Part shown: positions 18,214 to 55,079 of the stretch, piece after piece
Layout of the letters: each line of letters begins with the position of its first letter
How positions within the stretch are numbered: the stretch's first letter is position 1
Source: an uncultured Bacteroidales bacterium
GTDB taxonomy: Bacteria > Bacteroidota > Bacteroidia > Bacteroidales > FEN-979
Direction of reading: 5' to 3'
Assembly: GCA_903837605.1 (NCBI GenBank)
Contig: CAILVF010000012.1
Span: 15,679 to 79,678 of the forward strand
Length of the DNA: 64,000 nt
The notes under the pieces: model-generated
What the model was told of the DNA's origin: nothing
Seen by the model: only the letters and a program-made list of their open reading frames with translations
Database searches by the model: none
Made by a program: the position numbers and the translations under genes

Positions 18214-18237
18214 TACCCCAATATTTTAATTGGCTGG

Positions 18238-18270
18238 GGGCTTTTCATAAAGCCCGCCTTCTCTGTTTTT
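18238..18270 (+). terminator. possible intrinsic terminator after the Pro-rich ORF
   Basis: GGGCTTT-tcat-AAAGCCC hairpin (7-bp stem, 18238-18255), followed 10 nt later by TTTTT (18266-18270). Confidence 0.3.
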
Positions 18271-18291: not shown

Positions 18292-19542
18292 ATGGATAAG
18301 ACAGAAAAAGCAAAATCATCGCCTTCGGGAGGGAATCCTGAGGAAATGAACCGGATGTTGAAGATCACACGTCCGCGCTACTGGATCTCACTTTCCGCCC
18401 TCGGGCTTCTTACCCTGATCGCCATTTTCTGGGGATTCTTCGGAAGTATCCCGCAGAGGATAGACGGTCTTGGCGAGATCATCAGCGGCAAAGGGCTTCA
18501 TGGAATCATAGCGCTTTATCCCGGAGGAGTGGAGGAAGTTAATTTTGAACTGGGAGAAAAGGTGGAGTCAGGAGATATCCTGCTTCATCTTTTACAACCG
18601 CAGCTCCGGCACCAGCTGGTTGAATTCAATGCCCAGCTTGATGTGCTCAGGCTGCAGGATTCACTCCTCTCGAACAGGGATGCCATGGATTATCCTAACA
18701 AGATGAGGTTTTACGACCTGGAGGAAGTGAGGCTGAAAAAGGAACTGGCCCAGCTGGAGGATCAGATAAGCTTCCTGCAGCTGAAGATGAACCAGCAGCA
18801 GGATCTCTGGGATAAAGGCCTTGCCACAAGAGAGAATTATGTGGATGCGAAAAACCAGCTTTCCGATACCCGAAACAAGCGCACACAAACGGAACAGTCT
18901 GTTAAAACCAACCAGCTCGACCAGCAGTCCTGGGAATATGACAGGCAATACAAGCAGGAAGATTACAGGGGTCAGATACAGATCATGAAGAAAAAAATGC
19001 AGGACCTGCAGGACGATTATGACCAGCAGACGATCATCCGCAGCCCTGTAAAAGGGATAATAGTGGATAAATCGGTAAGCAGCGGCGACTTTGTGAATGC
19101 AGGCACCCGGATGATGGTCGTTGAGGACCTGGGAAATGAAAAGAACCATCTGCTTGACCTGTTCATTCCATTTAATTCCAATGCCGTTGTCGAACCCGGG
19201 ATGGAAGTCATGATCGAGCCTTTCACCGTGAATCACAATCTATACGGCTGGCTTATGGGAGTCGTTGTTGAGGTCAACCATTTCGTTTCAAATACCAATT
19301 CAATAATTGACGAATTGAACAATCCCGACCTGGTGGCATTGATACAGCAGCAGGGGCCTACGTATCGGGTCAAGATATACCTTCTCCCCGACGCACAAAC
19401 CAAAAGCGGGTTCATGTGGTCAAACAAAAAGGGACCTCCCTACACCATTAATACCGGTACTCTTTGCCGTGCTTCGGTACTTGTGAAGCAAAAACCACCG
19501 ATCGACTATATTATTCCGGTGCTTAAATCCTATTTTGAATAG
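18292..19542 (+). CDS. HlyD-family periplasmic adaptor / membrane fusion protein (bacteriocin/NHLM-type secretion adaptor)
   Basis: It has one N-terminal TM helix (YWISLSALGLLTLIAIFWGFFG) and a long coiled-coil region rich in Q/L/E/K. A lipoyl-like hairpin (IIRSPVKGIIVDKSV..GDFV..G) and a beta-barrel tail follow. It sits directly upstream of two ABC transporters. Confidence 0.8.
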   Translation: MDKTEKAKSSPSGGNPEEMNRMLKITRPRYWISLSALGLLTLIAIFWGFFGSIPQRIDGLGEIISGKGLHGIIALYPGGVEEVNFELGEKVESGDILLHLLQPQLRHQLVEFNAQLDVLRLQDSLLSNRDAMDYPNKMRFYDLEEVRLKKELAQLEDQISFLQLKMNQQQDLWDKGLATRENYVDAKNQLSDTRNKRTQTEQSVKTNQLDQQSWEYDRQYKQEDYRGQIQIMKKKMQDLQDDYDQQTIIRSPVKGIIVDKSVSSGDFVNAGTRMMVVEDLGNEKNHLLDLFIPFNSNAVVEPGMEVMIEPFTVNHNLYGWLMGVVVEVNHFVSNTNSIIDELNNPDLVALIQQQGPTYRVKIYLLPDAQTKSGFMWSNKKGPPYTINTGTLCRASVLVKQKPPIDYIIPVLKSYFE

Positions 19543-19571
19543 TTTCCAGAATACCCAATCGAAACTTTGTC

Positions 19572-21746
19572 ATGAGCAGCGATCATGTGAAAAAAAAGGT
19601 ACCGGTCATACTTCAGATCGGGGAAAACGAATCGGGCCCGGTAGCCCTGAACATGGTTTTCTCCTACTTCCGTTGCTGGCCGGCAAAAGATACGCTTAAT
19701 CAGGAATGCGGTGTTTCCGACAATTCCAAAATTCCTGTTGAACGGCTTATGAAAGTCGCCAGGGCCCATCACTTCATTTCGGATGTGCGGCAACCGGGCA
19801 TTGACGGATTAAAATCGTTGCGGCTGCCTGCAATTATCGGCATAAGGGGAGGGTATTTCAGCGTTCTTACAGGATATACGGGGGATTTTTTCCTTGTCAA
19901 CAGCACCAGGGAAGGGCAGCAGAAGATCACTGCTTCTGACCTTGAAAGCGTTTTCGACGGCAATGTGCTTACTCTTGAACCGGGGCCCGACTTCAAACCC
20001 GACAAGAAACAGTTCGGGTTTGCCGATAAAATATGGAGCCGGATAAAACCAAGCCGCTATGACCTGCTCTTCGTATTGATCTGCGGGGCAATTCTTGTGA
20101 TCCCTGCAGTGATCATGGCCGGTTTGAACAAGTTGTTTTTCGACGATATTATTAATCTTAACCAGCCGAGGTATTTCAGGCCCATGTTGCTGCTTATTGC
20201 CGGATTATTCTTCTTTAACGGCATCCTCACTTTCCTGCAGCAAAAGGTGCTGGTCAAAATCGAACTTCGCCTTGCGATCGTTGAATCTTCAAAACTTTTA
20301 CTCCATATCCTGAAGCTGCCCATCCGTTTCTTCATGACAAGGCAGCCTGGCGAGATATTTAAAAGGGTGCAGCTAAACGATGACCTGGCTGCACTTTTAT
20401 CCACAGAACTGACTTCTACCATTTCGAATATGATCACTGTTATCCTTTACGCGGTGGTCATGATACAATACAACTTTCTTCTGACCGTCATCGGGGTGAC
20501 CGTCATTCTTGTGAATCTTTTCGTTTTAAGGATAATTTCCGAAAAGAGATCTACTCTCAACCAGCTTCTTTTTGAAAGGAACCAGCGGACGTTCAGTACT
20601 GCAGGGGTGGGACTGGAGCAGATCGAAACGATCAAAGCCACAGGTTCCGAGAATGACTTTTACGGACTGTGGTCGGGAAGCCTTTCCAATGCCGTGGTTT
20701 ACGATCAGAGGCTTAATGTGACCTCCAACCTGCTGGATGCTCTTCCCGATTTTCTTTCTAATCTCAACAATATTATCCTGCTGACCCTTGGGGGATTGCT
20801 TGTGATATATGGCGATATGACCATTGGTATTTTCATCGCATTCCAGAGCCTGATGTCGAATTTCACAGGGCCTGTAAAATCGGTTGTATCAATGGGAAGT
20901 GATCTTCAGGTTGCAAAAAGCAACCTGAACACCATTCAGGACGCCTTATCTACAGGGGAGGACGTTTATTTCAACACCACGGTCAGTGATGACCCCGCAT
21001 CACTCAGCCCCGGGTCTTCCAAACTTCACGGTTTTCTGGATTTCACAAATGTGACCTTCGGGTACGACCGTTTTGCCGAACCCCTGATATCAGGGTTCTC
21101 CCTTCATGTTGAACCGGGAAAGAGGATTGCCCTGGTTGGCGGATCCGGTTCCGGCAAGTCAACCCTGGCCAAGCTTGTCGCAGGGCTTTACCATCCCTGG
21201 GAAGGGGATATACTGTTCGACGGCAGGAAAAGGACTGCTTATCCCCAGGACGTCATCAGGAATTCCATCTCCCTGGTCGACCAGGAAATTTTCATTTTCA
21301 AGGGTACTGTAAATGAGAATATCACCATGTGGAATAATACCATTCCCACCCCCGATATTATCCAGTCGACAAGGGATGCATGCATTCACGACATTATCTC
21401 ATCCAGGCCGGGCGGATATAACGGGATCCTGATCAATGCAGGGAATAACCTGAGCGGTGGTCAGAGGCAACGTATCGAGATTGCGAGGGCTCTCGTGGTG
21501 AATCCGACCATCCTGGTTATGGACGAGGCAACAAGCGCCCTGGATGCCAATACCGAGAAGATCATCGACAACAACATCCGCCGGCGCGGATGCACGACCC
21601 TGATCATCGCACACCGGCTCAGCACCATCCGCGACTGTGACGAGATCATAGTCCTGGACCGGGGAAAAGTGGTTCAGCGTGGCACTCACGATGAAATGAT
21701 CAAAGATCAGCAAGGGCTTTATTTCAAACTCGTAAATCTCAACTGA
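19572..21746 (+). CDS. ABC exporter (C39-like domain + permease + ATPase), bacteriocin/NHLM-exporter type, with a degenerate peptidase triad
   Basis: The N-terminal 135 aa align colinearly to C39 domains (VPVILQ.....G......M......). Six TM helices follow. Walker A is GGSGSGKST, the signature is LSGGQRQR, Walker B is LVMDEATSALD, and the H-loop is IAHRLST. The catalytic Cys, His and Asp positions read Ser21, Tyr95 and Asn110. Confidence 0.85.
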   Translation: MSSDHVKKKVPVILQIGENESGPVALNMVFSYFRCWPAKDTLNQECGVSDNSKIPVERLMKVARAHHFISDVRQPGIDGLKSLRLPAIIGIRGGYFSVLTGYTGDFFLVNSTREGQQKITASDLESVFDGNVLTLEPGPDFKPDKKQFGFADKIWSRIKPSRYDLLFVLICGAILVIPAVIMAGLNKLFFDDIINLNQPRYFRPMLLLIAGLFFFNGILTFLQQKVLVKIELRLAIVESSKLLLHILKLPIRFFMTRQPGEIFKRVQLNDDLAALLSTELTSTISNMITVILYAVVMIQYNFLLTVIGVTVILVNLFVLRIISEKRSTLNQLLFERNQRTFSTAGVGLEQIETIKATGSENDFYGLWSGSLSNAVVYDQRLNVTSNLLDALPDFLSNLNNIILLTLGGLLVIYGDMTIGIFIAFQSLMSNFTGPVKSVVSMGSDLQVAKSNLNTIQDALSTGEDVYFNTTVSDDPASLSPGSSKLHGFLDFTNVTFGYDRFAEPLISGFSLHVEPGKRIALVGGSGSGKSTLAKLVAGLYHPWEGDILFDGRKRTAYPQDVIRNSISLVDQEIFIFKGTVNENITMWNNTIPTPDIIQSTRDACIHDIISSRPGGYNGILINAGNNLSGGQRQRIEIARALVVNPTILVMDEATSALDANTEKIIDNNIRRRGCTTLIIAHRLSTIRDCDEIIVLDRGKVVQRGTHDEMIKDQQGLYFKLVNLN

Positions 21747-21747
21747 T

Positions 21748-24672
21748 ATGGACCCACAGGATATTACCTCATATTATACCCAGACCGTCCAGCTTTCCGG
21801 CAACAAGGTTCTTGCCCTTTTGAGTGAGAAAATGCAGGCCTGGTATCTTGAAGAAGGGGATGCTGATATTTTTTATGTCGAAAACCTGCCTTCGGGTCCC
21901 GGCCGCAGGCTTTTCCTTTTCAGGATTTCGTCACCCTTCCTCATCCCTGCGTTCAGCAGCAATGATGCATTCTCAATAGTGATCAGCGCGCTTCTTCCAT
22001 GCAAAGTCGGCATCTTGGGAGAGGAATCCCTGTCAGGGCTTTTTGCCGGCAAACCCGATTATTCCACTTATCTGACCGAACTCTGGTTCCTCAGGTTAAG
22101 CAGCGCTCTGAACCATTTCGGCGCAATGCCCCTGCTTAACGGAATAAGTTGCGAGAAGGGATTCGTTGCCGAACCTTCGAAGAATTACGGAGCCGCGAAC
22201 TCCATGGAAGTACTTTGGATCAGATCGTCGGGCCTCAAACCGGTCTATTTCAATTTCCTGGACCCTGGTCCTGACAGCCTCCCCCTGCTGCCTGTCACTT
22301 CCAACCTCTGGCTGAGCCTGGGTTCGGCCTTGCCGAAAGATGTCCTGGGAACCAGGGATGTCATTACGGATCCTGGGTTTTTAACATCACTGTTCGGATT
22401 CAACAGCATGGTCATACCCGTGCTTAAAAAACTGTATGCCGAAAACAGCAAAACGGAGCTAACGCATGTCAAGGATACTTACGCATTCAGGCATAACGCA
22501 ATCTTTGGCGCCATTACCAGGTTCAAAACTATCATCTCCGGAAAATCAACAGACACTCTTTTTACAGCAGGGGACAGGGAATCCGGCCCTTTGGCTTCGG
22601 TCACACCGAACATGCTTCTGCTCCAGACCTGCCAGCTGGTAGGGAAAACCGAACGTATTGAGTTCGTCGATCCCGGTAACCGCGTCAGCGGGAAGCATGA
22701 TTTTGTCTGGAACATCCTCAGGGCCTCCAATATCAGGTCAAGGCAGGTAGCGCTTGAGCCGGACTGGTGGACCAATAATGCAGGCTCCATGCTGGGTTTC
22801 CTGAAAGCCGACCATACCCCTGTAGGCCTTGTTGCGAAAGGCAATACAGGATACTGGATGATAGACCTTAAGAACAGGACGAAAGAATTAGTAAATGCAC
22901 AAGTGAGCAGCCGGCTCGAAAGCAGGGCAACCAGTTTTTTCACCCCCTTCCCTAAAGGAAAGCTGGTGGGGAAGGACCTTGTTAAGTTTGCCCTGCAGTT
23001 CACCTATCGTGACATCGCCAGTTTCCTCATCATCGGAGTTATCGGCGCCCTTCTGGCCCTTGTCATTCCGGTTGTGGGAGGATATGTGTTCAACACAGTA
23101 ATCCCCGGGGGAAACACCAGGGAACTCTGGCAGATAGGGGCCATAATGGTCATTTGCGTAATCACCATTGGCCTCTTGAATTTTGCAAAATCCATAGCAG
23201 TGTTAAGGATGGCAGGAAAAGCCGGGTACAAGCTGCAGTCGGCCCTCTGGGACAGGATACTTTCCCTGAAAGTGGATTTCTTCAGGAATTACAGTCCCGG
23301 CAACCTTGCCGAAAGGAGCATGGGCATCGAAAGGATACGCGATACCCTGTCCACCACGGTGCTGGGCGCCATCATTTCAGGCATCTTCTCGGTGTTCTAC
23401 CTGGCCCTACTGTTCTTTTACGACCTGAAACTTGCATTGCTTGCACTGGTCCTGGGTCTTGTTGTGGCAGGGTTTACCCTCACAATCAGCCTGCTGGCAT
23501 ACAAACACGTCGTCTTCATGCGCAGGATGGATGCGATGATCTCGGGTTTCCTGCTGATGGCTATCCGGGGCATCAATAAGATAAGGGTTACAGGCAGCAA
23601 GGAAAAGGTCTTTTCGCTTTGGGGTGAAAGGTATTCCCAGCAGAAAGACCATTATCGCCAGAAACGCAACCTCCTGATGGTAGCCAGCATTTTCACGGTC
23701 ACTTTCCCCGTAATGGCTTCCATGTTTATATTTATAAGGGTTTACAATATCTTTACCTCAGGCCTGCCGGGCTTCGGCATTGGTGACTTTGTAGCTTTCA
23801 ACAGCGCCTACCTGAGTTTTCAGGGGGCACTCATACAAACTTTCATGGTGACTGTCCCGTTGCTGAACATTAAGCCTACCTACCAGCTCTTCCAGCCTAT
23901 ACTTGAAGCTGAAACGGAAGACATGAACGAGAAGCTGGATCCGGGTGAACTTACCGGGGGCATAGAGATTTCGAACCTGAGTTTCAGGTATGCCGATGCT
24001 CCTGACTGGAGCCTCAAAGACATTACTCTTAATATTCATCCCGGCCAGTTTGTCGCGCTCACAGGGAGTTCGGGGTCAGGCAAATCAACTCTTATCAGGC
24101 TTCTCCTGGGCTTTGAATATTATGATGTTGGCAGCATACTGTTTGACAAGAAAGAACTTAAGGGACTTGACATCCGGAATGTGAGGGACCAGCTGGGAGT
24201 GGTACTTCAGAATTCCAAGATCATGCAGGGTACTGTACTGTATAATATCACAGGCTCTTCGTCTTACACAGAGGAGGAAGCCTGGAATGCTGCGGAAATG
24301 GCCGGCTGTGCCAGGGAAATTGAAGCACTTCCGAATAAAATGTACACCATACTTCCACCGGGGGGTGACATCCTTTCTGGCGGCCAGCAACAAAGGATCA
24401 TTATAGCCCGGGCGCTCATCAGGAACCCTAGGATATTGATCTTCGACGAGGCGACATCCGCCCTCGACAATGAAACCCAGCAGATTGTCAGCTCGAGCAT
24501 TGACAAACTGAACGCAACAAGGATAGTGATTGCGCACCGCCTCAGCACCATCATCCATGCCGACAGGATCTTTGTTTTGGATAAAGGCCGGCTCATTGAG
24601 GAAGGGAATTATACAGAGCTGGTAGCAAAGAACGGGTTCTTTGCCGAACTCACCAGGAGACAGCTTGCCTGA
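21748..24672 (+). CDS. second ABC exporter subunit (permease + ATPase) with an N-terminal extension of about 420 aa and unknown function
   Basis: It starts 1 nt after the upstream stop. The TM region begins near aa 425. Walker A is GSSGSGKST, the signature is LSGGQQQR, Walker B is LIFDEATSALD, and the H-loop is IAHRLST. The N-terminal domain has no peptidase motifs. Confidence 0.8.
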   Translation: MDPQDITSYYTQTVQLSGNKVLALLSEKMQAWYLEEGDADIFYVENLPSGPGRRLFLFRISSPFLIPAFSSNDAFSIVISALLPCKVGILGEESLSGLFAGKPDYSTYLTELWFLRLSSALNHFGAMPLLNGISCEKGFVAEPSKNYGAANSMEVLWIRSSGLKPVYFNFLDPGPDSLPLLPVTSNLWLSLGSALPKDVLGTRDVITDPGFLTSLFGFNSMVIPVLKKLYAENSKTELTHVKDTYAFRHNAIFGAITRFKTIISGKSTDTLFTAGDRESGPLASVTPNMLLLQTCQLVGKTERIEFVDPGNRVSGKHDFVWNILRASNIRSRQVALEPDWWTNNAGSMLGFLKADHTPVGLVAKGNTGYWMIDLKNRTKELVNAQVSSRLESRATSFFTPFPKGKLVGKDLVKFALQFTYRDIASFLIIGVIGALLALVIPVVGGYVFNTVIPGGNTRELWQIGAIMVICVITIGLLNFAKSIAVLRMAGKAGYKLQSALWDRILSLKVDFFRNYSPGNLAERSMGIERIRDTLSTTVLGAIISGIFSVFYLALLFFYDLKLALLALVLGLVVAGFTLTISLLAYKHVVFMRRMDAMISGFLLMAIRGINKIRVTGSKEKVFSLWGERYSQQKDHYRQKRNLLMVASIFTVTFPVMASMFIFIRVYNIFTSGLPGFGIGDFVAFNSAYLSFQGALIQTFMVTVPLLNIKPTYQLFQPILEAETEDMNEKLDPGELTGGIEISNLSFRYADAPDWSLKDITLNIHPGQFVALTGSSGSGKSTLIRLLLGFEYYDVGSILFDKKELKGLDIRNVRDQLGVVLQNSKIMQGTVLYNITGSSSYTEEEAWNAAEMAGCAREIEALPNKMYTILPPGGDILSGGQQQRIIIARALIRNPRILIFDEATSALDNETQQIVSSSIDKLNATRIVIAHRLSTIIHADRIFVLDKGRLIEEGNYTELVAKNGFFAELTRRQLA

Positions 24673-24725
24673 GAGACAAATGAAAATAGAAAAGGGGAAG
24701 GTATAGAAATAACAATGCAACCGAG

Positions 24726-26255: not shown

Positions 26256-26284
26256 ATTTAAACGGGAAGCAGAGGTTGTAAACA

Positions 26285-36956: not shown

Positions 36957-38091
36957 CGATCTACTGAAAAAGATTGCCGGGCTGAGCCCGGTCCAGAAGG
37001 AAGCCCTGCTGAAAAAGCTGGGGATTTCTTCAATTAAATCCTCTGCGGATGAGTGCGCGGGTGAGAAGGAAAAGCTTCCCGGCTGTGCTTGTTTTGCCTG
37101 CGATTTCGGATTGCCCGGATCGCTGAACATCAGTTTCAGGGAAGCCGCAACCGGGCCCCCGCCTCCGGGTTATGTCCAGGTTAAAGCAAAGGCCGCCAGC
37201 CTGAACTACCGCGACCTGATGATCGCCATGGGGCATTACCCCGCTGCTCCGGGCGTGCCATCCAACATGGGTTCCGATTTTGCCGGGATTGTAACGTCAG
37301 TGGGGGAAGGAGTAAGTGAGTTCAGGGAGGGGGACGAGGTGATCGCCCTTTCGGCAGGAACATTCCTGGAAGGGGCGGTTCAGCCGGGCAGCCATTTTAT
37401 AAACGTGTTCAATGTAAACCGTCTGCAGCTGGCTCCCAAGCCGAAAACCCTGGATTTTGAGCAGGCGGCAGCGATCCCCACGGTATATCTCACGGCTTTT
37501 TCGGCCTTGCTCAGGCTTGGCCGTCTCAGCGAAAATGAAACCGTTTTGATCCATACCGCCACCGGGGGCGTTGGATTGGCAGCACTGGGGATTGCCCGCT
37601 GGAAAAAAGCAGTGGTCTATGCGACGGCAGGCACCCCCGAAAAAAGGGATTTTCTTAAAAGCAAAGGGATTGCCGAACCCATGGATTCCCGTTCTGAAGC
37701 TTTTGCCGGCAGGATCATGGAACTTACAGGGGGCCGGGGAGTGGATATTGTCATGAACACCCTCTCGGGAAATGCCATGATGAAAGGCCTTGAAATACTT
37801 TCACCATTCGGGCGCTTCATCCAGATCGATAAAAAAGATATTGCTATGAACACCCCCCTGCCCATGGGCTTGTTCAGGAAGGGGATAACGTTCAGCGCAC
37901 TTGACATATCACTTTATCTTCTGCAACCCGCCATGCTCAGGGAGCAGATGCATGAGATCATTACGCTGCACGATGAGAAAATATTCGAACCGCTGCCGCT
38001 TCAGGCATGGCCCGTAAGCCGACTGAAAGAGGCTCTAACCGTAATGTCGCGTTCGAAACATATCGGTAAACTCATACTTACCTATCCTTAG
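36946..38091 (+). CDS. stand-alone MDR-family enoyl reductase (PKS_ER / quinone-oxidoreductase-like) with an N-terminal docking-like peptide
   Basis: The ATG at 36946 overlaps the PKS stop by 11 nt; the listed 36940 is a TTG. MDR motifs: VQVKAKAASLNYRDLMIAMGHYP, GDEVIAL, VLIHTATGGVGLAAL. The N-terminal ~60 aa are not part of the MDR fold and carry LSPVQKEALLKKLG. Confidence 0.8.
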   Translation: MNHDDLLKKIAGLSPVQKEALLKKLGISSIKSSADECAGEKEKLPGCACFACDFGLPGSLNISFREAATGPPPPGYVQVKAKAASLNYRDLMIAMGHYPAAPGVPSNMGSDFAGIVTSVGEGVSEFREGDEVIALSAGTFLEGAVQPGSHFINVFNVNRLQLAPKPKTLDFEQAAAIPTVYLTAFSALLRLGRLSENETVLIHTATGGVGLAALGIARWKKAVVYATAGTPEKRDFLKSKGIAEPMDSRSEAFAGRIMELTGGRGVDIVMNTLSGNAMMKGLEILSPFGRFIQIDKKDIAMNTPLPMGLFRKGITFSALDISLYLLQPAMLREQMHEIITLHDEKIFEPLPLQAWPVSRLKEALTVMSRSKHIGKLILTYP

Positions 38092-38100
38092 GAAAAAGCC

Positions 38101-41100
38101 ATGGCGAACGACGAACGCCCCTTGAACGAACGCCTCTCAGGTCTGAGCCCTGCACAGCTCAAAGCTCTGCTCAGGAAAGGTATTGAGGGCTCCGCCCCAA
38201 GGCCCGGAAAGCCCGGGCTTATGCCGCGCATGCCCGGGGGCACATACCCTCTCTCAAAAGCCCAGGAGAGGATGTGGTTCCTGAACATGCTCTCGGGAGG
38301 AGAGGCAATTTACAATAACCCTGCTGCCTTGCGTGTCAAAGGCTTATCCCCCCTGAATATTTCCACCCTCACCGCCAGCCTTGAAATGCTGATGGCCAGG
38401 CACGAAATCCTCAGGACCACCTTCATGATTGAAAACGGTTCACCGGTCCAGGTTATCCACCCCGAAGGCAAAGCCTTCATCCGGTACGTCGATCTTCGCG
38501 GGATGCCATCAGCAGAAAGGGAAAAAAAGGCAACGGAAGAAGCGCTTGCACACGGAAAAACATTCATCCCCCTCGACAGCCTGCCGCTGTTGCGTTTTAC
38601 GGTGCTGCATCTGCAGGACCTTGAATACATGCTGCTCATCAACCCCCACCACATCATTTCCGACGGATGGTCGAACGCCCTGTTCGCGAAGGAACTCAGC
38701 ATGACTTATGCCAGCCTTGAATCCGGTGAAGCACCACCCTTTCCCGTGCCGGAATACCAATACGTCGATTTTGTAAAATGGGAGAAGGAATGGATGGCCT
38801 CCGAAGCAAGCAGGGGGCAGATGGATTTCTGGAAGGCCCAGCTTTCCGGCCTGCCGGAGCCTCTGAAGCTTCCGCTTGACTTTCCCCGCCCCCCGGTCAT
38901 GAGCTACAGGGGAAGCAGGGAGTTCAGCCTCATCGGCAGCGTGGAAGCCGACCTGCTCAGGAATTTCTGCCAGAAGAACAATATCACGATGTTTCACCTG
39001 CTTTTCGGGGCGTTCTCATTGCTGATGTCAAAATACAGCGGACAAGATGATATCATCTTGGGCATGCCCGTGGCCAGGCGAAACCAGCTCTGGTTCCAGA
39101 ATGCCATGGGCCTGTTCATCAACACCCTTCCGCTGAGGGTCAGGATAGATGAAACCATCCCTGCAATGGAATTCCTGCAATACATCAAATCCTATTCCCA
39201 GCAGGCCATGCTGAGGCAGGAGCTTCCCTTTGAGAAGCTGATCGAAGAAGTTAACCCTGACCGCAACCTGGGCAGCAACCCGGTGTTCCAGGTCCATTTC
39301 GTCTACCAGAACATCCCTTCCCTATACAGTGTGAAGGGGATGGAGGTTAAGCCTGAGAATATCGACTATTCCTTCTCGAAGTTTGACCTGAACTTCTGGG
39401 TCGAGGAGGCCAACCGGGAATTGATACTGTCGGCTACATATCCTTCCGACATTTTCCTGCCGGAGACCGTATCGCAGATCATAAGCAATTACTGGCGGCT
39501 GCTTGGATCCATTACTTCCGCCCCGGGAGAATGCTGCGGGAAGCTAAGTGTTTTCCACGAAGACCAGCTTTCGTCCTTTGAAGGCCCGCACAGGGATTTC
39601 GGCTTCAGCGGGGGCAATCCCTGGCTCACGGCTTTTGATTCATGCGTAAAGAAATTCCCGGGGAACATGGCTGTAAGGGATGTTTCAGGATCCCTGACCT
39701 ATGCCGGGCTTGATGAGGAATCCGGTCTTCTGGCCCATCAGCTCAGGGAAGCAGGTGTAAGGAAGGGTGACCTTGTAGGGCTGCTCATGCCCCGAGACCT
39801 TTCCCTGGTGACAGCCATCATCTCCATATTCAAATGCGGGGCTGCCTACGTCCCCATGGATTCCGCATTTCCGGCTGAAAGGCTGGAATTCATGGCAAGG
39901 GACGCGGGTTTAAAAGGGATACTGAAGAAGGATGGTTTCCAGCGGCGTAAATATCTTCCGGAAACACGGGCCATCCTGCGCCCTGATGACCTGGCTTATC
40001 TCATTTATACTTCGGGCACCACGGGGGTCCCTAAAGGCGTTTGCGTGGGCAATGAACAGCTCTATAATTACTCCATGGCGGTATGGGAAAGAATGAAACT
40101 CGGTCCGGGAGATTCCTGCGCCACCATTTCTTCCATCGCCTTCGACCTGGGCAACACTTCCATTTTCCCGCCCCTGCTTCATGGAGCCGGGGTCGTGGTA
40201 GTGCCCGAAGAATATTCCACTGATGCTTCCCTGCTTGCAGGCTGGTTTGCAGTACATCCCGTCGACTGCCTCAAGATCGTTCCTTCTCATCTTTTAAGTT
40301 TGCTTTCTTCATTGAAGGCGGATGACATCCTCCCGAAAAAACTTCTGGTTACCGGCGGTGAGAAATGCACAGATTCTCTTGCCGCCAGGGTAAGGTCCCT
40401 TTCTCCGGCACTGAGGATCATCAACCATTACGGCCCCACCGAGGCAACCGTGGGAGCACTTACCTGGGAGCTGCCTTCCGGGACTGCGCCTGCATCTCCG
40501 GCAAACAGGGATGCTTTCCCCATAGGCTTTCCACTACCCAATACCAGGGTATATATCACAGACCGCGGGATGAACCTTCTTCCCAAAGGAGCGGAAGGGG
40601 AGATCATACTGGGAGGCAGGCAGATCGCATACGGTTACCTTGACCGGCCGGATCTGAGCCGCGAGAAATTTACCGAAGACCCACGGCACCCGGGGGAGAC
40701 GCTGTACCATACGGGCGACCTCGGGAAGATGGCCGGTGACGGATCTGTCATATTCCTCGGCAGGAAAGACGACCAGGTCAAAGTAAGAGGCTACAGGGTT
40801 GAAATGAGGGAGGTGGAGCAAACCATGGAACAGCATCCTTCAATCAGCAGGGCGGTCGTTGTTTTGCCTGACGGACAGGACCTGCTGAGCACCCTGAATG
40901 CTGCGGTCATACTTGCGGATGATGTTTCTTTTGACGAATCCGCCTACCGGAACTGGCTGGCACAGCGGCTGCCGTCATACATGATCCCTTCTTCGATACG
41001 TGTGGTCAGAAGCCTGCCCCTTACCCCGAACGGGAAGACCGACCTGAAGCAGCTCAGGGCCTTGTTCAGGGGGGAAGCCGGTAGCGGATCCGCATCCATG

Positions 41101-42210
41101 GCTCCAAGGGATATCACCGAACTAAAGCTGCTGCAGATATTCGGAGAAGTGCTGGGAAAGGGTTCTTTCGGGATCACCGATTCTTTCTTCGACCTGGGGG
41201 GGCATTCACTGCTTGCCATCCGTTTGTTTTCGGGAATAGAAAAGGAATTCGGGATCCATCTACCTCTTGCCGCCCTGTTCAGCAGGAGCAGCGTCAAAGC
41301 CCTGGCGGAGGCTGTCAGGAACGAGGGATTAACCTTGAAGGAAAGTTCGCTGGTAAACATCAGGCCGGGGGAGGGAGTGAAAAAACTGTACCTCGTGCAT
41401 CCTGCGGGGGGCAATGTGCTTTGTTATTTTGAGCTGGCGAAGCAGCTCCCCGCATGGATCTCCGTTTACGGTTTGCAGGCCTCGGGACTCGCAGGAAAGA
41501 CCGTCGACAGCGTGTCGGACATGGCACGTATATACCTGGAAGAAATTGGGCAGGGCGTCGAAGCAGCTGACATGATTTTCGGGGGCTGGTCCATGGGGGC
41601 GCTGGTTGCCTTTGAAATGGCCAGGCAGGTGAAACAGAACACAGGCATCAGCCCTGGCCTGATGATCATCGACCAGCTTGCTCCTTCAGATACGTCGCTC
41701 TCCATTCCAATGGAAAAAGCCGATCCGGTCAGCAGGATGCTTGCCTTTGCCGGAAAAGTGGCCCACCTCGTCGGCAAGCCGCTCGGGATCACCGAAGCCG
41801 ACCTGAGAGGAAAAGATCCCATGGAACAATCAGGGGTTTTTCTCGAAACTTTTATCCGGGTTGGCCTGGTCCCTGAAGACATGAAAGTTTCACAGTTCCA
41901 CGGTTACCTGGATACCATGATCCACCATAATGAGATAACATCCGAATGCAGGCCCGGTATTTTCGAAGGGCCGGCTCTCCTGCTCAGGGCCATAGACAGC
42001 CTCGAGCTGCCGGGCACTTCCAGTGATCATACAGTACGCGCCCCCGACCTGGGCTGGGGGAGATACATACCCGGGAACCTCCTTGTCAGGAACATCCCCG
42101 GGAATCATGTTTCGGTAATGGCCCGGCCCTGGGTAAAGGCTGTGGCCGGTTGCCTTGAAGAATGGCTGGGAACGGAGAACGGACATCCGCAAACAAAAAA
42201 AGAAGTATGA
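38101..42210 (+). CDS. nonribosomal peptide synthetase termination module (C-A-T-TE)
   Basis: C: HHIISDGWS. A: YLIYTSGTTGVPKGV, NHYGPTE, GRKDDQVKVRGYRVE, PNGKTDL. T: FFDLGGHSLLA. TE: GGWSMGA with downstream Asp (IIDQ) and His (PGNHVSVM). Confidence 0.95.
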   Translation: MANDERPLNERLSGLSPAQLKALLRKGIEGSAPRPGKPGLMPRMPGGTYPLSKAQERMWFLNMLSGGEAIYNNPAALRVKGLSPLNISTLTASLEMLMARHEILRTTFMIENGSPVQVIHPEGKAFIRYVDLRGMPSAEREKKATEEALAHGKTFIPLDSLPLLRFTVLHLQDLEYMLLINPHHIISDGWSNALFAKELSMTYASLESGEAPPFPVPEYQYVDFVKWEKEWMASEASRGQMDFWKAQLSGLPEPLKLPLDFPRPPVMSYRGSREFSLIGSVEADLLRNFCQKNNITMFHLLFGAFSLLMSKYSGQDDIILGMPVARRNQLWFQNAMGLFINTLPLRVRIDETIPAMEFLQYIKSYSQQAMLRQELPFEKLIEEVNPDRNLGSNPVFQVHFVYQNIPSLYSVKGMEVKPENIDYSFSKFDLNFWVEEANRELILSATYPSDIFLPETVSQIISNYWRLLGSITSAPGECCGKLSVFHEDQLSSFEGPHRDFGFSGGNPWLTAFDSCVKKFPGNMAVRDVSGSLTYAGLDEESGLLAHQLREAGVRKGDLVGLLMPRDLSLVTAIISIFKCGAAYVPMDSAFPAERLEFMARDAGLKGILKKDGFQRRKYLPETRAILRPDDLAYLIYTSGTTGVPKGVCVGNEQLYNYSMAVWERMKLGPGDSCATISSIAFDLGNTSIFPPLLHGAGVVVVPEEYSTDASLLAGWFAVHPVDCLKIVPSHLLSLLSSLKADDILPKKLLVTGGEKCTDSLAARVRSLSPALRIINHYGPTEATVGALTWELPSGTAPASPANRDAFPIGFPLPNTRVYITDRGMNLLPKGAEGEIILGGRQIAYGYLDRPDLSREKFTEDPRHPGETLYHTGDLGKMAGDGSVIFLGRKDDQVKVRGYRVEMREVEQTMEQHPSISRAVVVLPDGQDLLSTLNAAVILADDVSFDESAYRNWLAQRLPSYMIPSSIRVVRSLPLTPNGKTDLKQLRALFRGEAGSGSASMAPRDITELKLLQIFGEVLGKGSFGITDSFFDLGGHSLLAIRLFSGIEKEFGIHLPLAALFSRSSVKALAEAVRNEGLTLKESSLVNIRPGEGVKKLYLVHPAGGNVLCYFELAKQLPAWISVYGLQASGLAGKTVDSVSDMARIYLEEIGQGVEAADMIFGGWSMGALVAFEMARQVKQNTGISPGLMIIDQLAPSDTSLSIPMEKADPVSRMLAFAGKVAHLVGKPLGITEADLRGKDPMEQSGVFLETFIRVGLVPEDMKVSQFHGYLDTMIHHNEITSECRPGIFEGPALLLRAIDSLELPGTSSDHTVRAPDLGWGRYIPGNLLVRNIPGNHVSVMARPWVKAVAGCLEEWLGTENGHPQTKKEV
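38233..39540 (+). other. NRPS2 condensation domain
   Basis: HHIISDGWS at aa 183-191. Confidence 0.85.
39613..41055 (+). other. NRPS2 adenylation domain A3 (hand-read code DLTKVGHVGK, Asp-like)
   Basis: Code residues come from IAFDLGNTS, CLKIVPS, LLVTGGE, INHYGPTEATVG and the Lys of PNGKTDL. Compare the published Asp code DLTKVGHIGK. Confidence 0.7.
41098..41316 (+). other. NRPS2 thiolation domain
   Basis: FFDLGGHSLLAI; Ser1036. Confidence 0.85.
41368..42165 (+). other. NRPS2 thioesterase domain
   Basis: GxSxG (GWSMG, Ser1164), Asp1191 and His1336, spaced as in alpha/beta-hydrolase TE domains. Confidence 0.8.
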
Positions 42211-42980
42211 AATTGCCGCAGGGTTCATTCCTTTCATCGGCCCGTATCGGGACCAGTGATGAACTGCAGTTTGCAGGGATGGCAATTTTGCCCATCATGC
42301 AGGGCATGCCGGCAGGCGAGGAATTGACCGAACTCCTTCACACTGAGGAAAAGGAAAGGGCTGCCGCTTTCGCCTCGGAATCGCGCAGGACTTCCTTTAT
42401 TTATGGCAGGATAGCGGCAAAGCTGGCTATTCTGGAGGTATTCCCCGAAGCTGTTGCTCAGGAGATCAATATAGTGAACGGCGCTATAGGAGAGCCTGTC
42501 ATTGAATGGCCCGGGCATGAATATTCCGTTTCCGTTTCTCATTCAGAACATCATAGTGCCGGCCTGGTGTTTCCCACCGGCTTGCTGATGGGGATCGACA
42601 TTGAAACGCCGGAAGAAAAGAACCGCAGCATAATACCATCCATTTTAAGCCCGGATGAAATGGAACTGGTAAAAGCTGCTAATAATTCGATTGAGTTCCT
42701 GCATCTGCTCTGGACGGCAAAAGAGGCAGCCGGAAAGGCAAACGGGTTTGGATTCAGGCTCCCGGCAGAGAAGTATGAAATTGAAACTGAAGTTTCAGTT
42801 AACCACGATGGCGTTCGCTATTTTCTGAGCCGTTTCAAACATTTAAACGGAGTGGATGCCATTACACGAAATCTCGGCGGGGCTGTTCTGTCGGTTGCTT
42901 TTCCAACTGGGCACTATTTCCAGGATCAGGTTATAAGGCTTTTAAGTATACAACCAATGGAAAAGGACCCGGTTTTTTAA
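42207..42980 (+). CDS. Sfp-type 4'-phosphopantetheinyl transferase
   Basis: The ATG at 42207 overlaps the NRPS2 stop (ATGA). Motifs: SVSHSEHH, GIDIE, WTAKEAAGKA. The listed upstream start at 42162 lies inside the NRPS2 gene. Confidence 0.8.
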   Translation: MKLPQGSFLSSARIGTSDELQFAGMAILPIMQGMPAGEELTELLHTEEKERAAAFASESRRTSFIYGRIAAKLAILEVFPEAVAQEINIVNGAIGEPVIEWPGHEYSVSVSHSEHHSAGLVFPTGLLMGIDIETPEEKNRSIIPSILSPDEMELVKAANNSIEFLHLLWTAKEAAGKANGFGFRLPAEKYEIETEVSVNHDGVRYFLSRFKHLNGVDAITRNLGGAVLSVAFPTGHYFQDQVIRLLSIQPMEKDPVF

Positions 42981-42992
42981 CCATTAAAAGGA

Positions 42993-43826
42993 ATGTCTAT
43001 GAAACTGGAAGATTTGATTAAACCGGCTTCCTCCTGCGACAGTGCGGGCATTATGCCATTACTCTTTGTAGGGCACGGCAGCCCGATGAATGCGATAGAG
43101 GACAATGTCTTCTCCCGGAAGTGGACCGAAATCGGCAAAACGCTTCCAAAGCCTAAAGCGATTTTATCCGTTTCTGCTCATTGGGAGACGAAAGGGGTGC
43201 ATGTAACAGCTATGAAACATCCGAAAACCATCCATGATTTTGGGGGATTTCCAAAGGAATTATATGAAGTTGAGTATCCTGCGGAAGGAAGCCCGGAGCT
43301 GGCTTCCGAAACCGCGGATCTTCTTCGCCCTGCAGAGGTGTTGTCCGACCAAAACTGGGGGCTTGACCATGGCAGCTGGAGTGTGCTTAAACGGATGTAC
43401 CCCATGGCCGATGTCCCGGTATTCCAGCTGAGCCTGGATTATTCGCGTTCCCCTGAATCGCATTACCTGCTTGCAAAGGAACTGGCGCCCCTTCGCGAAA
43501 AAGGGGTGCTGATCCTCGGAAGCGGGAACCTGGTTCATAACCTCAGGATGGTTGCATGGGACAAGCTAAACGAACCAGGGTATGGTTACGACTGGGCGCT
43601 GGAGGCCGATGGGAAAATGAAACAACTTATTCTTGCAGGCAACCATAAGGCCCTGATCGATTTTCGTTCACAGGGCAGGGCTTTCGATCTGGCCATCCCG
43701 ACTCCGGAACATTTTCTACCCCTGCTGTATATCCTGGGGCTGAAGAAAGACCATGAGCAGATCGAATTCTTCAATGAGCAGGCAGTTGCTGGGTCGCTTA
43801 CCATGACCTCGCTGAGGATAGGCTGA
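42993..43826 (+). CDS. class III (LigB-type) extradiol dioxygenase, YgiD / DOPA 4,5-dioxygenase-like
   Basis: LFVGHGSPMNA, SVSAHWET and NWGLDHGSW(S)VL are characteristic of the YgiD/DODA-like LigB subfamily. It lies 12 nt after the PPTase gene. Confidence 0.75.
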   Translation: MSMKLEDLIKPASSCDSAGIMPLLFVGHGSPMNAIEDNVFSRKWTEIGKTLPKPKAILSVSAHWETKGVHVTAMKHPKTIHDFGGFPKELYEVEYPAEGSPELASETADLLRPAEVLSDQNWGLDHGSWSVLKRMYPMADVPVFQLSLDYSRSPESHYLLAKELAPLREKGVLILGSGNLVHNLRMVAWDKLNEPGYGYDWALEADGKMKQLILAGNHKALIDFRSQGRAFDLAIPTPEHFLPLLYILGLKKDHEQIEFFNEQAVAGSLTMTSLRIG

Positions 43827-55024: not shown

Positions 55025-55079
55025 AGTCATTTTGGTTAACCAATGTCCAATCATTGTTTTTTTATTGCAGGCGGTCACG

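What the first reader, a model, noticed from the sequence alone, without database searches (positions are those of the whole stretch)
18292..43826. A bacteriocin/NHLM-style tripartite exporter is packed in one gene train with a hybrid NRPS-PKS-NRPS assembly line
Eleven + strand genes are packed with gaps of at most 53 nt or with overlaps:
- 21746/21748: 1-nt gap
- 31356-31366: 11-nt overlap
- 36946-36956: 11-nt overlap
- 42207-42210: ATGA overlap
- 42980/42993: 12-nt gap

Gene order is HlyD adaptor, C39-type ABC, long-N-terminus ABC, TolC-like OMF, NRPS (A-T-C-A-T), PKS (KS-AT-KR-DH-ACP), stand-alone ER, NRPS (C-A-T-TE), Sfp-type PPTase, LigB-type dioxygenase.

The adaptor plus peptidase-ABC plus second-ABC trio is the architecture known from exporters of ribosomal (NHLP/Nif11-leader, double-glycine) peptides. 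I see no precursor peptide and no RiPP maturase in the window. The cargo genes are instead thiotemplate megasynthases. That suggests a leader-peptide-type exporter recruited to secrete a small nonribosomal product across both membranes. Hand counts on sampled 60-nt lines also suggest the megasynthase genes are more GC-rich than the flanks (about 52-65% versus about 47%), consistent with acquisition as a block.
Basis: partly seen in the sequence, partly recalled or inferred. Interest (0 to 1): 0.85.

Follow-up and report, generated by a model that had tools for sequence, protein, structure and literature searches.

The report
Protease-dead bacteriocin-type exporter in NRPS-PKS cluster
A secretion pump of the kind that normally cuts and exports ribosomal bacteriocins has lost its cutting residues and, across many Bacteroidota, is hard-wired to a nonribosomal peptide-polyketide assembly line and an orphan small protein, so it has probably been repurposed for a new cargo.

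Summary
The gene train is real. The window comes from a Bacteroidota MAG (ELA351).

**What holds up**
- The HlyD adaptor and the long ABC pass NCBI's NHLM-specific models, TIGR03794 and TIGR03797.
- The C39 ABC hits TIGR03796 best but scores below its cutoff.
- Exporter, TolC-like OMF, NRPS and PKS stay syntenic in every Bacteroidota relative with enough DNA, down to 44-47% ABC1 identity, while the flanks differ.

1. The C39 catalytic Cys is Ser in all 30 Bacteroidota loci, and the His is lost in nearly all. Firmicutes relatives keep Cys/His and sit beside Nif11-type GG precursors.
2. An orphan proline-rich small protein gene (17794-18213) sits exactly where a precursor would. In Bacteroidales a conserved terminator-like hairpin follows it.
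3. The LigB/DOPA dioxygenase is not a conserved member. The cluster ends at the PPTase.
4. The long ABC N-terminus has a CRP/cNMP-like fold.

**Best reading (about 0.5):** a dedicated, non-cleaving, envelope-spanning exporter for the predicted small acyl-GABA-Asp-type product.

**Main rival:** the small protein is the cargo or a co-cargo.

This is a new variant of known kinds. No experiment exists.

The parts
17114..17758 (+). VC0807-family multi-pass membrane protein. It is the first gene of the block conserved in the Bacteroidales-type loci and is absent from the Flavobacteriaceae versions.
   Evidence: NCBIfam NF041646 scores 92.3 bits against a cutoff of 65. It is 59-86% identical in relatives, while the genes further upstream differ.
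17794..18213 (+). Orphan small protein of 139 aa. It has a conserved N-terminal M..K.(Y/F).(I/V/N)P.PP motif, a variable Pro/Thr/Ala/Gly linker and a conserved C-terminal HHKxHHL..NG.CKP.LKE.G.K..KKF module. It has no signal peptide. It occupies the position of a bacteriocin precursor gene.
   Evidence: It lies directly upstream of HlyD in every NRPS-PKS-NRPS-linked locus with upstream DNA. In L006 a Pro-rich ORF sits there that lacks the C-terminal motif and was not found by the HMM. An HMM of Bacteroidales members finds the Flavobacteriaceae ORFs at 4e-6 and 1e-5. It has no Pfam, NCBIfam, PHROG or PDB relative. The only GG-like motif (VTPDLAATPGG) lies in an indel that the 93-aa homologues lack.
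18236..18270 (+). GC-rich hairpin (18236-18258) plus a T-rich tail, between the small ORF and HlyD. It looks like a terminator or attenuator.
   Evidence: RNAfold on 17 loci. RNAalifold on 12 Bacteroidales loci gives a 10-bp consensus stem in which 6 pairs show compensatory changes. The sequence was read. The simple terminator scan did not flag it.
18292..19542 (+). NHLM-type HlyD periplasmic adaptor.
   Evidence: TIGR03794 scores 246.8 bits against a cutoff of 156.2. Pfam HlyD_3.
19572..21746 (+). ABC1: a C39-fold N-terminal domain with the catalytic Cys replaced by Ser and the His by Tyr, followed by a type-IV exporter TMD and an intact NBD.
   Evidence: Pfam Peptidase_C39 at 1.4e-13, ABC_membrane and ABC_tran. 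TIGR03796 scores 801 bits against a cutoff of 853.3. Alignment to LahT150 (6MPZ) shows ESG for ECG and GGYF for FNHF. The same change is present in all 30 Bacteroidota loci. Walker A/B, signature and H-loop motifs are intact.
21748..24672 (+). ABC2: NHLM ABC without a peptidase, carrying an extra N-terminal extension of about 290 aa with a CRP/cNMP-binding-like beta-barrel fold.
   Evidence: TIGR03797 scores 778.6 bits against a cutoff of 709.4, over residues 291-973. AF2 model of residues 1-421 has pLDDT 81.6. Foldseek matches CprK, CRP and PKA regulatory subunits at E 4e-6 to 6e-5. NBD motifs are intact.
24726..26255 (+). TolC-like outer membrane factor with a signal peptide.
   Evidence: Pfam OEP at 3.2e-15, two stretches. 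N-terminus reads MKKTMFLLALLAAGIMPAAGQ. It is conserved after ABC2 in all Bacteroidota loci and absent from the Firmicutes relatives.
26285..31366 (+). NRPS1, A1-T1-C-A2-T2. A1 lacks Asp235, so its substrate is a non-alpha-amino acid. A2 is Gly-like.
   Evidence: Pfam. Active-site motifs. Specificity residues were read by hand: A1 is A-A-T-Y-Y-S-L-A-N and A2 is DILQIGLVY. The A1 code is conserved in all clades.
31356..36956 (+). PKS module, KS-AT-KR-DH-ACP. The AT is malonyl-specific.
   Evidence: Pfam. GHSVG/HAFH, the KS Cys and His residues, the DH His and the ACP Ser are present.
36946..38091 (+). Stand-alone MDR-type enoylreductase (trans-ER).
   Evidence: Pfam ADH_N and ADH_zinc_N. Best NCBIfam hits are the ER region of a PKS and PIG3-type quinone oxidoreductases. 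Conserved in L136-L138.
38101..42210 (+). NRPS2, C-A3-T-TE. A3 is Asp-like.
   Evidence: Pfam. Code DLTKVGHVG read. HHxxxDG, the T-domain Ser and the TE GWSMG motif are present.
42207..42980 (+). Sfp-type PPTase, the last conserved gene of the cluster.
   Evidence: Pfam ACPS and 4PPT_N. In L136, L137 and L138 the cluster ends here and unrelated opposite-strand genes follow.
42993..43826 (+). YgiD-type 4,5-DOPA extradiol dioxygenase. It is a neighbour in this genome only, not a conserved cluster member.
   Evidence: NF007914 scores 316 bits against a cutoff of 233. It is absent after the PPTase in three relatives. Its 94%-identical metagenomic homologue L056 has no NRPS nearby.

Best explanation
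Window 17.1-43.0 kb is one conserved Bacteroidota biosynthetic gene cluster. Its assembly line and exporter work as follows.

**Assembly line.** A hybrid NRPS-PKS-NRPS line, primed by its own PPTase, is predicted to make a small acidic pseudo-tripeptide:
1. A1 activates an unknown carboxylic acid that is not an alpha-amino acid.
2. This is condensed with Gly.
3. The chain is extended with malonate and fully reduced (KR, DH and the trans ER), which gives a GABA unit.
4. Asp is added and the TE releases the product.

**Exporter.** The product leaves the cell through a dedicated four-part, envelope-spanning exporter: the HlyD adaptor, two ABC half-transporters and an in-cluster TolC-like channel. 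This exporter descends from the NHLM/PCAT bacteriocin exporters. Its C39 domain has lost the catalytic Cys and His, so it no longer removes a leader peptide. The second ABC carries a CRP/cNMP-like ligand-binding domain that may gate or regulate transport.

**Shown here:** gene content, family assignment, loss of the catalytic residues, clade-wide synteny with thiotemplate genes, and intact assembly-line motifs.

**Inferred:** that the nonribosomal product is the cargo, the product structure, and that ABC1 and ABC2 form a heterodimer.
For: - NHLM-specific model hits.
- The order HlyD-ABC1-ABC2-OMF-NRPS1-PKS is kept in every Bacteroidota locus with enough downstream DNA, from 95% down to 44% ABC1 identity. 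This covers Bacteroidales-type MAGs and cultured Flavobacteriaceae (Asprobacillus argus S356, Pseudotenacibaculum sp.), with differing flanks.
- The same Ser-type exporter plus OMF sits next to other thiotemplate-type genes and without the small ORF: a different PKS/glycosyltransferase/PPTase set in L027 and an AT-DH protein in L029.
- Cys to Ser is found in 30 of 30 Bacteroidota loci, and His is lost in all but L007/L008.
- In an NJ tree the Ser-type sequences form one group of 31 terminals: 30 with Ser plus one N-terminally truncated sequence. The first Cys/His sequence lies just outside it.
- The nearest Cys/His relatives (Firmicutes, 33-37% identity) pass the TIGR03796 cutoff, lack an OMF and NRPS, and sit beside GG-motif precursor-like ORFs. 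In L038 these are weak Nif11-leader hits below cutoff, with radical-SAM-like genes nearby.
- Both NBDs are intact.
- Gaps are tight or overlapping, and no terminator-like site separates the exporter from the NRPS.
- GC3 is raised in common across the exporter and megasynthase genes.
Against: - There are no expression or metabolite data.
- A conserved small protein gene lies exactly where a peptide cargo gene would be, and C39-like domains in other type I systems bind protein cargo.
- A Pseudomonadota Ser/His variant (L140) sits beside a giant repeat protein and has no NRPS.
- Precursors of NHLM systems can be encoded far from the exporter (Haft 2010, PMC2887384), and the rest of the MAG could not be scanned.
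- The A-domain codes were read by hand and the A1 substrate is unknown.
- ABC1 is below the TIGR03796 cutoff, so equivalence of function with NHLM exporters is not assured in either direction.
Confidence: 0.5

Rival explanations
1. The exporter's cargo is the orphan small proline-rich protein. It would be secreted uncleaved, as type I secretion substrates handled by C39-like domains are. The NRPS-PKS product would be a functionally linked partner, for example a cofactor, a co-secreted ligand or a covalent modification of the protein.
For: - The small ORF lies directly upstream of HlyD in all NRPS-linked loci with upstream DNA, in both Bacteroidales-type and Flavobacteriaceae loci.
- It has no signal peptide yet carries a Pro/Thr-rich linker typical of extracellular proteins.
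- A conserved hairpin plus T-run follows it. This matches the structural-gene/leaky-terminator layout of bacteriocin operons.
- The exporter family ancestrally moves peptides.
- L140 shows a Ser-variant exporter next to a protein-type candidate cargo.
Against: - The small ORF is absent from the PKS-linked Ser-type exporter loci L027 and L029. It therefore tracks the NRPS-PKS-NRPS genes rather than the exporter.
- It has no conserved GG site or recognisable leader.
- It has no RTX-like or other known secretion signal.
- The Flavobacteriaceae loci lack the hairpin.
Confidence: 0.27
2. This is still a classical RiPP exporter. Its NHLP/Nif11-type precursors and maturases are encoded elsewhere in the genome, and the adjacency to the NRPS-PKS genes has no functional meaning.
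For: Haft et al. 2010 note that precursors may lie far from the export genes. HlyD and ABC2 pass the NHLM equivalog cutoffs.
Against: - The catalytic Cys and His needed for double-glycine cleavage are gone across the clade.
- Linkage to thiotemplate genes persists over deep divergence and through changing flanks.
- ABC1 is below the TIGR03796 cutoff, while a Cys/His relative passes it.
Confidence: 0.06
3. The pump acts mainly in self-protection or signalling. It would expel or sense the compound, with the CRP-like domain as sensor, and would not be the primary secretion route.
For: Transporters embedded in biosynthetic clusters often act as resistance determinants (general knowledge). A ligand-binding CRP/cNMP-like domain is fused to ABC2.
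Against: A full envelope-spanning set with its own OMF, placed first in the operon and conserved clade-wide, is more than a resistance pump usually needs. This reading is not clearly separable from export with the data in hand.
Confidence: 0.1

Closest known systems
NHLM/NHLP bacteriocin export system (TIGR03794, TIGR03796, TIGR03797; Haft et al. 2010, PMC2887384)
   Same: It has the same three-gene core in the same family: an HlyD adaptor, a C39-domain ABC and a second ABC without a peptidase. HlyD and ABC2 pass the equivalog cutoffs.
   Different: - ABC1 is below its cutoff, and its catalytic Cys and His are replaced.
- No NHLP/Nif11 precursor or maturase is nearby.
- An OMF gene is in the cluster.
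- The neighbours are NRPS/PKS genes.
- ABC2 has an extra CRP-like N-terminal extension.
Peptidase-containing ABC transporters (PCAT1, LahT, ComA)
   Same: It has a C39-fold N-terminal domain on a type-IV ABC exporter. The domain aligns to LahT150 (6MPZ) at E 2.6e-11, and PCAT1 (4RY2) is a full-length match.
   Different: Ser replaces the nucleophilic Cys, and Tyr, Asn, Lys or Glu replaces the His. No double-glycine cargo was found.
HlyB/HlyD/TolC-type type I secretion with a C39-like domain (CLD)
   Same: It has a non-catalytic C39-like appendix on the ABC, plus a membrane fusion protein and a TolC-like channel (my knowledge of the HlyB CLD).
   Different: It has two different ABC genes. It has no RTX or C-terminal-signal cargo. 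TIGR01846 scores 373.6 against a cutoff of 725.55.
Tripartite ABC exporters attached to secondary-metabolite loci (PvdRT-OpmQ for pyoverdine, Pseudomonas lipopeptide MacAB-like PleABC, DevBCA-HgdD for heterocyst glycolipids)
   Same: The functional logic is the same: an adaptor, an ABC and an OMF encoded with an NRPS or PKS cluster to carry its product across the Gram-negative envelope (my knowledge).
   Different: Those systems use MacB/DevC-type ABC transporters. The two ABCs here have the ABC_membrane (HlyB/MsbA-type) fold and bacteriocin-exporter ancestry.
Cyanobacterial 'long-type' bacteriocin ABC transporters with an N-terminal CAP_ED domain (PMC4558948)
   Same: A CRP/cNMP-type effector domain is fused to a bacteriocin-family ABC exporter.
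   Different: In those transporters the domain sits on the C39-bearing transporter of RiPP clusters. Here it sits on the peptidase-less ABC2 of an NRPS-PKS cluster, and no Pfam cNMP_binding hit is detectable by sequence.

Membership tests
NHLM/NHLP bacteriocin export system | HlyD-like adaptor scoring above the TIGR03794 cutoff | tested here: met
   246.8 bits against a cutoff of 156.2. L026 scores 219.9.
NHLM/NHLP bacteriocin export system | Peptidase-less ABC scoring above the TIGR03797 cutoff | tested here: met
   778.6 bits against a cutoff of 709.4. L026 scores 748.4.
NHLM/NHLP bacteriocin export system | Peptidase-bearing ABC scoring above the TIGR03796 cutoff | tested here: not met
   801 bits against a cutoff of 853.3, although it is the best hit by more than 400 bits. 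L026 scores 756.9 and L027 740.2. The Cys/His relative L035 scores 890.2 and passes.
NHLM/NHLP bacteriocin export system | Co-occurrence with NHLP (TIGR03793) or Nif11-type (TIGR03798) precursors that carry a Gly-Gly site | tested here: not met
   None was found in the 64-kb window or upstream of HlyD in the relatives. The rest of the genome could not be tested. The Firmicutes relative L038 does have weak Nif11-type hits.
PCAT / AMS transporters | N-terminal C39-fold domain on an ABC exporter | tested here: met
   PF03412 at 1.4e-13. LahT150 at 2.6e-11.
PCAT / AMS transporters | Catalytic Cys and His of the C39 protease | tested here: not met
   ESG replaces ECG and GGYF replaces FNHF. Ser is present in 30 of 30 Bacteroidota loci. 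Of 151 C39-domain hits (the 150 best representatives plus two reference sequences), 131 keep Cys and His.
CLD-type type I secretion (HlyB-like) | Non-catalytic C39-like domain, adaptor and TolC-like OMF | tested here: met
CLD-type type I secretion (HlyB-like) | ABC belongs to the HlyB subfamily (TIGR01846), with an RTX-type cargo that carries a C-terminal signal | tested here: not met
   TIGR01846 scores 373.6 against a cutoff of 725.55. No RTX-like gene is in the window.
Hybrid NRPS-PKS assembly line | Complete, motif-intact A, T, C, KS, AT, KR, DH, ACP, ER and TE domains plus a PPTase | tested here: met
   Pfam. Active-site motifs.
A characterised (MIBiG) cluster | Match of the whole locus to a cluster with a known product | not testable with these tools
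   antiSMASH and MIBiG are not available. Full-text searches found no description.
MacB-type tripartite exporters of NRPS products (PvdRT-OpmQ, PleABC) | MacB/FtsX-type permease | tested here: not met
   Both ABCs carry PF00664 ABC_membrane.

The most novel reading that the evidence does not exclude
The orphan proline-rich small protein and the nonribosomal product form one system. The ribosomal protein would be a new kind of leader-independent cargo or carrier, recognised by the protease-dead C39 domain, that leaves the cell bound to or covalently joined with the NRPS-PKS product. That would make this a ribosomal/nonribosomal hybrid secreted by a repurposed bacteriocin exporter.
Probability: 0.12. 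Interest if true: 0.85.

Novelty: new variant of a known kind. Interest (0 to 1): 0.6.

Why it matters
If the inference holds, a whole Bacteroidota clade has converted a leader-cleaving RiPP exporter into a non-cleaving secretion machine for thiotemplate products. That would extend PCAT/NHLM-type transporters beyond ribosomal peptides.

It also gives genome miners a simple marker for this switch: Ser in place of the C39 Cys, plus an in-cluster OMF.

It defines an uncharacterised cluster family with a predictable small product and an orphan small protein. Both occur in cultured marine Flavobacteriaceae (Asprobacillus argus S356, Pseudotenacibaculum sp.), so the question of cargo is directly testable.

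It also warns that automatic 'NHLP bacteriocin export' annotations in Bacteroidota MAGs do not imply a bacteriocin.

Tried and rejected
- **Double-glycine leader in the small ORF.** A loose regex hit only VTPDLAATPGG in the 139-aa ORF. This motif lies in a linker segment that the 93-aa homologues lack, so it is not a conserved cleavage site.
- **LigB/DOPA dioxygenase as supplier of the A1 starter unit.** Rejected as a conserved feature. Three relatives end the cluster at the PPTase, and the 94%-identical homologue L056 has no NRPS nearby.
- **Exact look-up of the window's ABC2.** Not on record.
- **Homologue search with the small protein.** It returned only one near-identical fragment.
- **Family searches for the small protein.** Pfam, NCBIfam, PHROGs and a PDB profile gave nothing.
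- **Sequence search for the ABC2 N-terminus.** Pfam gave nothing even at E=10. Only the fold comparison was informative.
- **Sigma-70 promoter scan.** Not informative, because Bacteroidota promoters differ.
- **Literature searches.** Searches for NHLM/C39-like-domain exporters in NRPS clusters, and for these organisms, found no precedent.
- **Context of Ser-variant ABC1 outside the clade.** L139 was too short to be informative. L140 showed a protein-type neighbour, not an NRPS.

Full report

Pfam and NCBIfam confirm the domain calls:
- 18292-19542: HlyD adaptor
- 19572-21746: C39 + ABC_membrane + ABC_tran
- 21748-24672: ABC with about 420 aa ahead of its membrane domain
- 24726-26255: OEP-type outer membrane factor with a signal peptide
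- A-T-C-A-T NRPS
- KS-AT-KR-DH-ACP PKS
- stand-alone MDR-type enoylreductase
- C-A-T-TE NRPS
- Sfp-type PPTase
- LigB-fold protein that is an equivalog-level 4,5-DOPA extradiol dioxygenase (NF007914, 316 bits)

There are ten genes in the stated span, not eleven.

GC in 2-kb windows is 0.51-0.56 over the megasynthases against 0.36-0.49 in the flanks. GC3 is 0.56-0.645 from the small ORF through NRPS2, including the exporter genes. PPTase is 0.50 and VC0807 0.52. Flanking genes are mostly 0.33-0.54.

**Organism.** The flanks are full of T9SS C-terminal sorting domains. The window is 100% identical at ABC1 to contig JBAXIO010000021.1 of 'MAG: Bacteroidota bacterium isolate ELA351' (L011).

**Is the exporter really the bacteriocin/NHLM kind?** Largely yes.
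- TIGR03794 scores 246.8 bits (cutoff 156.2).
- TIGR03797 scores 778.6 bits (cutoff 709.4).
- TIGR03796 is the top hit for the C39 ABC at 801 bits, far above HlyB-type (373.6) or MsbA-type models. It is still below its equivalog cutoff of 853.3.

The family was defined by Haft et al. 2010 through phylogenetic profiling with NHLP precursors. The same paper warns that precursors can lie far from the export genes (PMC2887384).

**Synteny.** Homologues of ABC2 at 52-98% identity are common in metagenomes. Look-ups of six of them and a scan of one genome per GTDB species with an ABC1 alignment, mapped by tblastn with the window proteins, gave three results.
- Every Bacteroidota locus with enough downstream DNA has HlyD-ABC1-ABC2-OMF-NRPS1-PKS in the same order. 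This covers Bacteroidales-type lake MAGs (76-95% ABC1 identity), more distant MAGs (53%), and Flavobacteriaceae at 44-47%. The Flavobacteriaceae include the cultured Asprobacillus argus S356 (L026) and Pseudotenacibaculum sp. MALMAid0570 (L028).
- The genes further upstream differ between loci: an AraC regulator, an ornithine decarboxylase, a Usp protein, or GDPD.
- Look-ups anchored on PPTase homologues at 76%, 59% and 38% identity show PKS-ER-NRPS2-PPTase followed directly by unrelated opposite-strand genes.

The DOPA dioxygenase is therefore a neighbour only in this genome. Its 94%-identical metagenomic homologue (L056) has no NRPS nearby.

Three Flavobacteriales loci carry the exporter and OMF without NRPS1 downstream.
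- L027 lies next to an AT-ACP-KR PKS, a PhyH dioxygenase, two glycosyltransferases, a PPTase and a methyltransferase.
- L029 lies next to an AT-DH protein.
- L030 is too short to judge.

This exporter clade is thus repeatedly linked to thiotemplate genes, not only to one cluster.

**The protease domain is dead.** The N-terminal 150 aa of ABC1 align to the double-glycine protease LahT150 (6MPZ, E 2.6e-11). The nucleophile motif ECG reads ESG, and the His motif FNHF reads GGYF.
- All 30 Bacteroidota loci have Ser at the Cys position.
- The His is Tyr, Asn, Lys or Glu everywhere except L007/L008.
- The next relatives are from Firmicutes (33-37% identity). They keep Cys and His, and L035 passes the TIGR03796 cutoff at 890.2 bits. 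They lack both an OMF and an NRPS.
- These Firmicutes loci sit beside GG-motif precursor-like ORFs. In L038 these are weak TIGR03798 Nif11-leader hits, E about 3e-5 to 6e-5 and below cutoff, with SPASM/radical-SAM-like genes nearby. In L035 they are a family of 160-180-aa precursors ending in AAGG.
- A full HMMER search of 1.84 billion cluster representatives gave 151 C39-domain hits, from the 150 best proteins plus the two reference sequences I added. Of these, 131 have Cys and His, and about a dozen have Ser or another residue at the Cys position.
- In a neighbour-joining tree of 152 sequences, the Bacteroidota loci plus four representatives form one group of 31 terminals without a single Cys. 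Thirty have Ser and one is N-terminally truncated. The first Cys/His sequence lies just outside the group. The tree has no support values.

From established knowledge of C39 proteases, loss of both the Cys and the His should abolish double-glycine cleavage. The domain then resembles the C39-like domains of HlyB-type systems. Both nucleotide-binding domains keep the Walker A/B, signature and H-loop motifs.

**The long N-terminus of ABC2.** TIGR03797 covers only residues 291-973, and Pfam finds nothing in residues 1-421 even at E=10.
- An AlphaFold2 model built on a 23-sequence alignment has mean pLDDT 81.6.
- It matches CRP/FNR-type effector domains and cNMP-binding domains (CprK, CRP, CooA, PKA regulatory subunits) at Foldseek E 4e-6 to 6e-5.
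- CAP_ED domains fused to bacteriocin ABC transporters are already known from cyanobacteria (PMC4558948). This feature is therefore a variant, not a novelty.
- The Flavobacteriaceae ABC2 proteins (about 750 aa) lack most of this extension.

The 139-aa ORF at 17794-18213 lies 78 nt upstream of HlyD.
- Homologous ORFs of 67-171 aa occupy the same place in every NRPS-PKS-NRPS-linked locus whose upstream DNA is available. In L006 the ORF there is Pro-rich but lacks the C-terminal motif, and the HMM did not find it.
- They share three parts. The N-terminus reads M(E/K)NQKK(R)F(I)P(S/T)PPKGP. The linker is variable and rich in Pro, Thr, Ala and Gly. The C-terminal module reads HHKK(F/H)HLD(A/E)NG(D/N)(W/C/F)KPxLKEKG..KKF, and in Flavobacteriaceae it reads DIDQYRDANGKITCPVSQEERDALKAKG.
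- An HMM of the Bacteroidales members recovers the Flavobacteriaceae ORFs as the two top hits (4e-6 and 1e-5) among 1,676 six-frame ORFs.
- The family has no signal peptide and no relative in Pfam, NCBIfam, PHROGs or the PDB.
- It has no conserved Gly-Gly site. The one GG-like motif lies in an indel.
- It is absent from the PKS-only loci L027 and L029.

In the Bacteroidales-type loci, the 80-160-nt spacer before HlyD holds a GC-rich hairpin followed by a T-run. RNAalifold gives a 10-bp consensus stem in which six pairs show compensatory changes. Only about 35-45 nt remain before the HlyD start codon, so transcription of the exporter and NRPS genes probably depends on read-through. This is the layout of bacteriocin structural genes. 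The Flavobacteriaceae spacers (about 30 nt) have no hairpin.

A VC0807-family membrane protein gene (17114-17758; NF041646, 92 bits) precedes the small ORF in the Bacteroidales-type loci only.

**Assembly line and product (inferred).** All catalytic motifs are intact.

| Domain | Residues read | Inference |
|---|---|---|
| A1 | A-A-T-Y-Y-S-L-A-N; no Asp235; conserved in every clade | a carboxylic acid that is not an alpha-amino acid |
| A2 | DILQIGLVY | close to the Gly code DILQLGLIWK |
| A3 | DLTKVGHVG | close to the Asp code DLTKVGHIGK |
| AT | HAFH | malonyl |

With KR, DH and the trans ER, the Gly unit becomes a 4-aminobutyryl unit. The predicted product is acyl-GABA-Asp, released by the TE. 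The reference codes come from my knowledge, so the prediction is provisional.

**Explanations.**

1. *Main model (confidence about 0.5).* This is a conserved biosynthetic cluster whose own exporter has been repurposed for the thiotemplate product. The exporter derives from bacteriocin exporters, does not cleave, and spans the envelope.
   - For: clade-wide linkage to NRPS/PKS genes, including different thiotemplate neighbours that lack the small ORF; the single-origin loss of the protease residues; the in-cluster OMF; and the tight operon structure.
   - Against: no experimental data exist.

2. *Main rival (about 0.27).* The small protein is the cargo or a co-cargo.
   - For: its position, the hairpin, its extracellular-looking composition, and a Pseudomonadota Ser/His variant that sits beside a giant repeat protein with no NRPS (L140).
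   - Against: the small ORF tracks the NRPS-PKS-NRPS genes rather than the exporter.

3. *Classical RiPP exporter with distant precursors (about 0.06).* The dead protease and the persistent synteny make this unlikely. It cannot be excluded without the whole genome.

4. *Resistance or sensing role (about 0.1).* The data in hand cannot separate this from export.

**Comparison with known systems.** By sequence, this belongs to the NHLM exporter lineage. It fails two defining features: the TIGR03796 cutoff with its catalytic dyad, and association with an NHLP/Nif11 precursor. I therefore file it as a divergent subfamily rather than a member.
- It works like a CLD-type type I secretion system in architecture.
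- It works like PvdRT-OpmQ, PleABC or DevBCA-HgdD in logic, but it is built from a different ABC class.
- Full-text searches found no description of such an exporter in an NRPS/PKS cluster.
- A MIBiG comparison could not be run.

**Verdict.** Novelty is a new variant of a known kind. Interest is 0.6. It is a clade-wide evolutionary repurposing that can be tested in cultured strains, and it carries an unexplained orphan protein. It rests on genomic inference only.

Noticed in passing
window 48063-48332 (+): An 89-aa ORF in a 305-nt intergenic gap. It has a signal-peptide-like N-terminus, a PPPPPG/GGGGSGG stretch, then a hydrophobic helix and a Lys/Arg-rich tail that resembles a C-terminal sorting signal.
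   Followed up: no
window 50228-51337 (+): The DUF4932 gene has GC 0.295 and GC3 0.246, far below all its neighbours. This suggests separate foreign origin.
   Followed up: no
window 54011-57476 (-), and both flanks: Three tandem paralogues with Lcl_C domains lie here. Both flanks hold many T9SS Por_Secre_tail cargo genes, including proteins of 2174 aa and 1347 aa that flank the cluster.
   Followed up: no
window 42993-43826 (+): An equivalog-level 4,5-DOPA extradiol dioxygenase lies only 12 nt after the PPTase, yet it is not conserved with the cluster in relatives. Whether this genome co-transcribes it with the cluster is open.
   Followed up: partly
L035 9959-21425 (Ruminococcaceae bacterium FB2012): Canonical Cys/His NHLM ABC1 and ABC2 are followed by five paralogous 160-180-aa precursors with ...ELD.AAGGAK, then an ACP, two KS-like genes and a GNAT-like gene. 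It looks like a fatty-acylated RiPP locus.
   Followed up: no
L140 1-11636 (Pseudomonadota MAG): A Ser/His-variant ABC1 with a 969-aa ABC2 lies next to a giant adhesin-like repeat protein (YDG..GNGVSY.GFVNGE repeats) and a Bestrophin-like gene, with no NRPS. C39 variants outside the Bacteroidota clade may serve protein cargo.
   Followed up: partly
L027 80-8522 (Mesohalobacter MAG): The same Ser-type exporter and OMF sit beside an AT-ACP-KR PKS, a PhyH dioxygenase, an MBL hydrolase, two glycosyltransferases, a PPTase and a methyltransferase. This is a glycolipid-like cluster without the small ORF.
   Followed up: partly
window 15603-17108 (+): A DUF5122 beta-propeller protein gene ends 5 nt before the VC0807-family gene. 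It recurs upstream of the cluster in many, but not all, Bacteroidales-type loci at 44-82% identity. Its link to the cluster is unclear.
   Followed up: no
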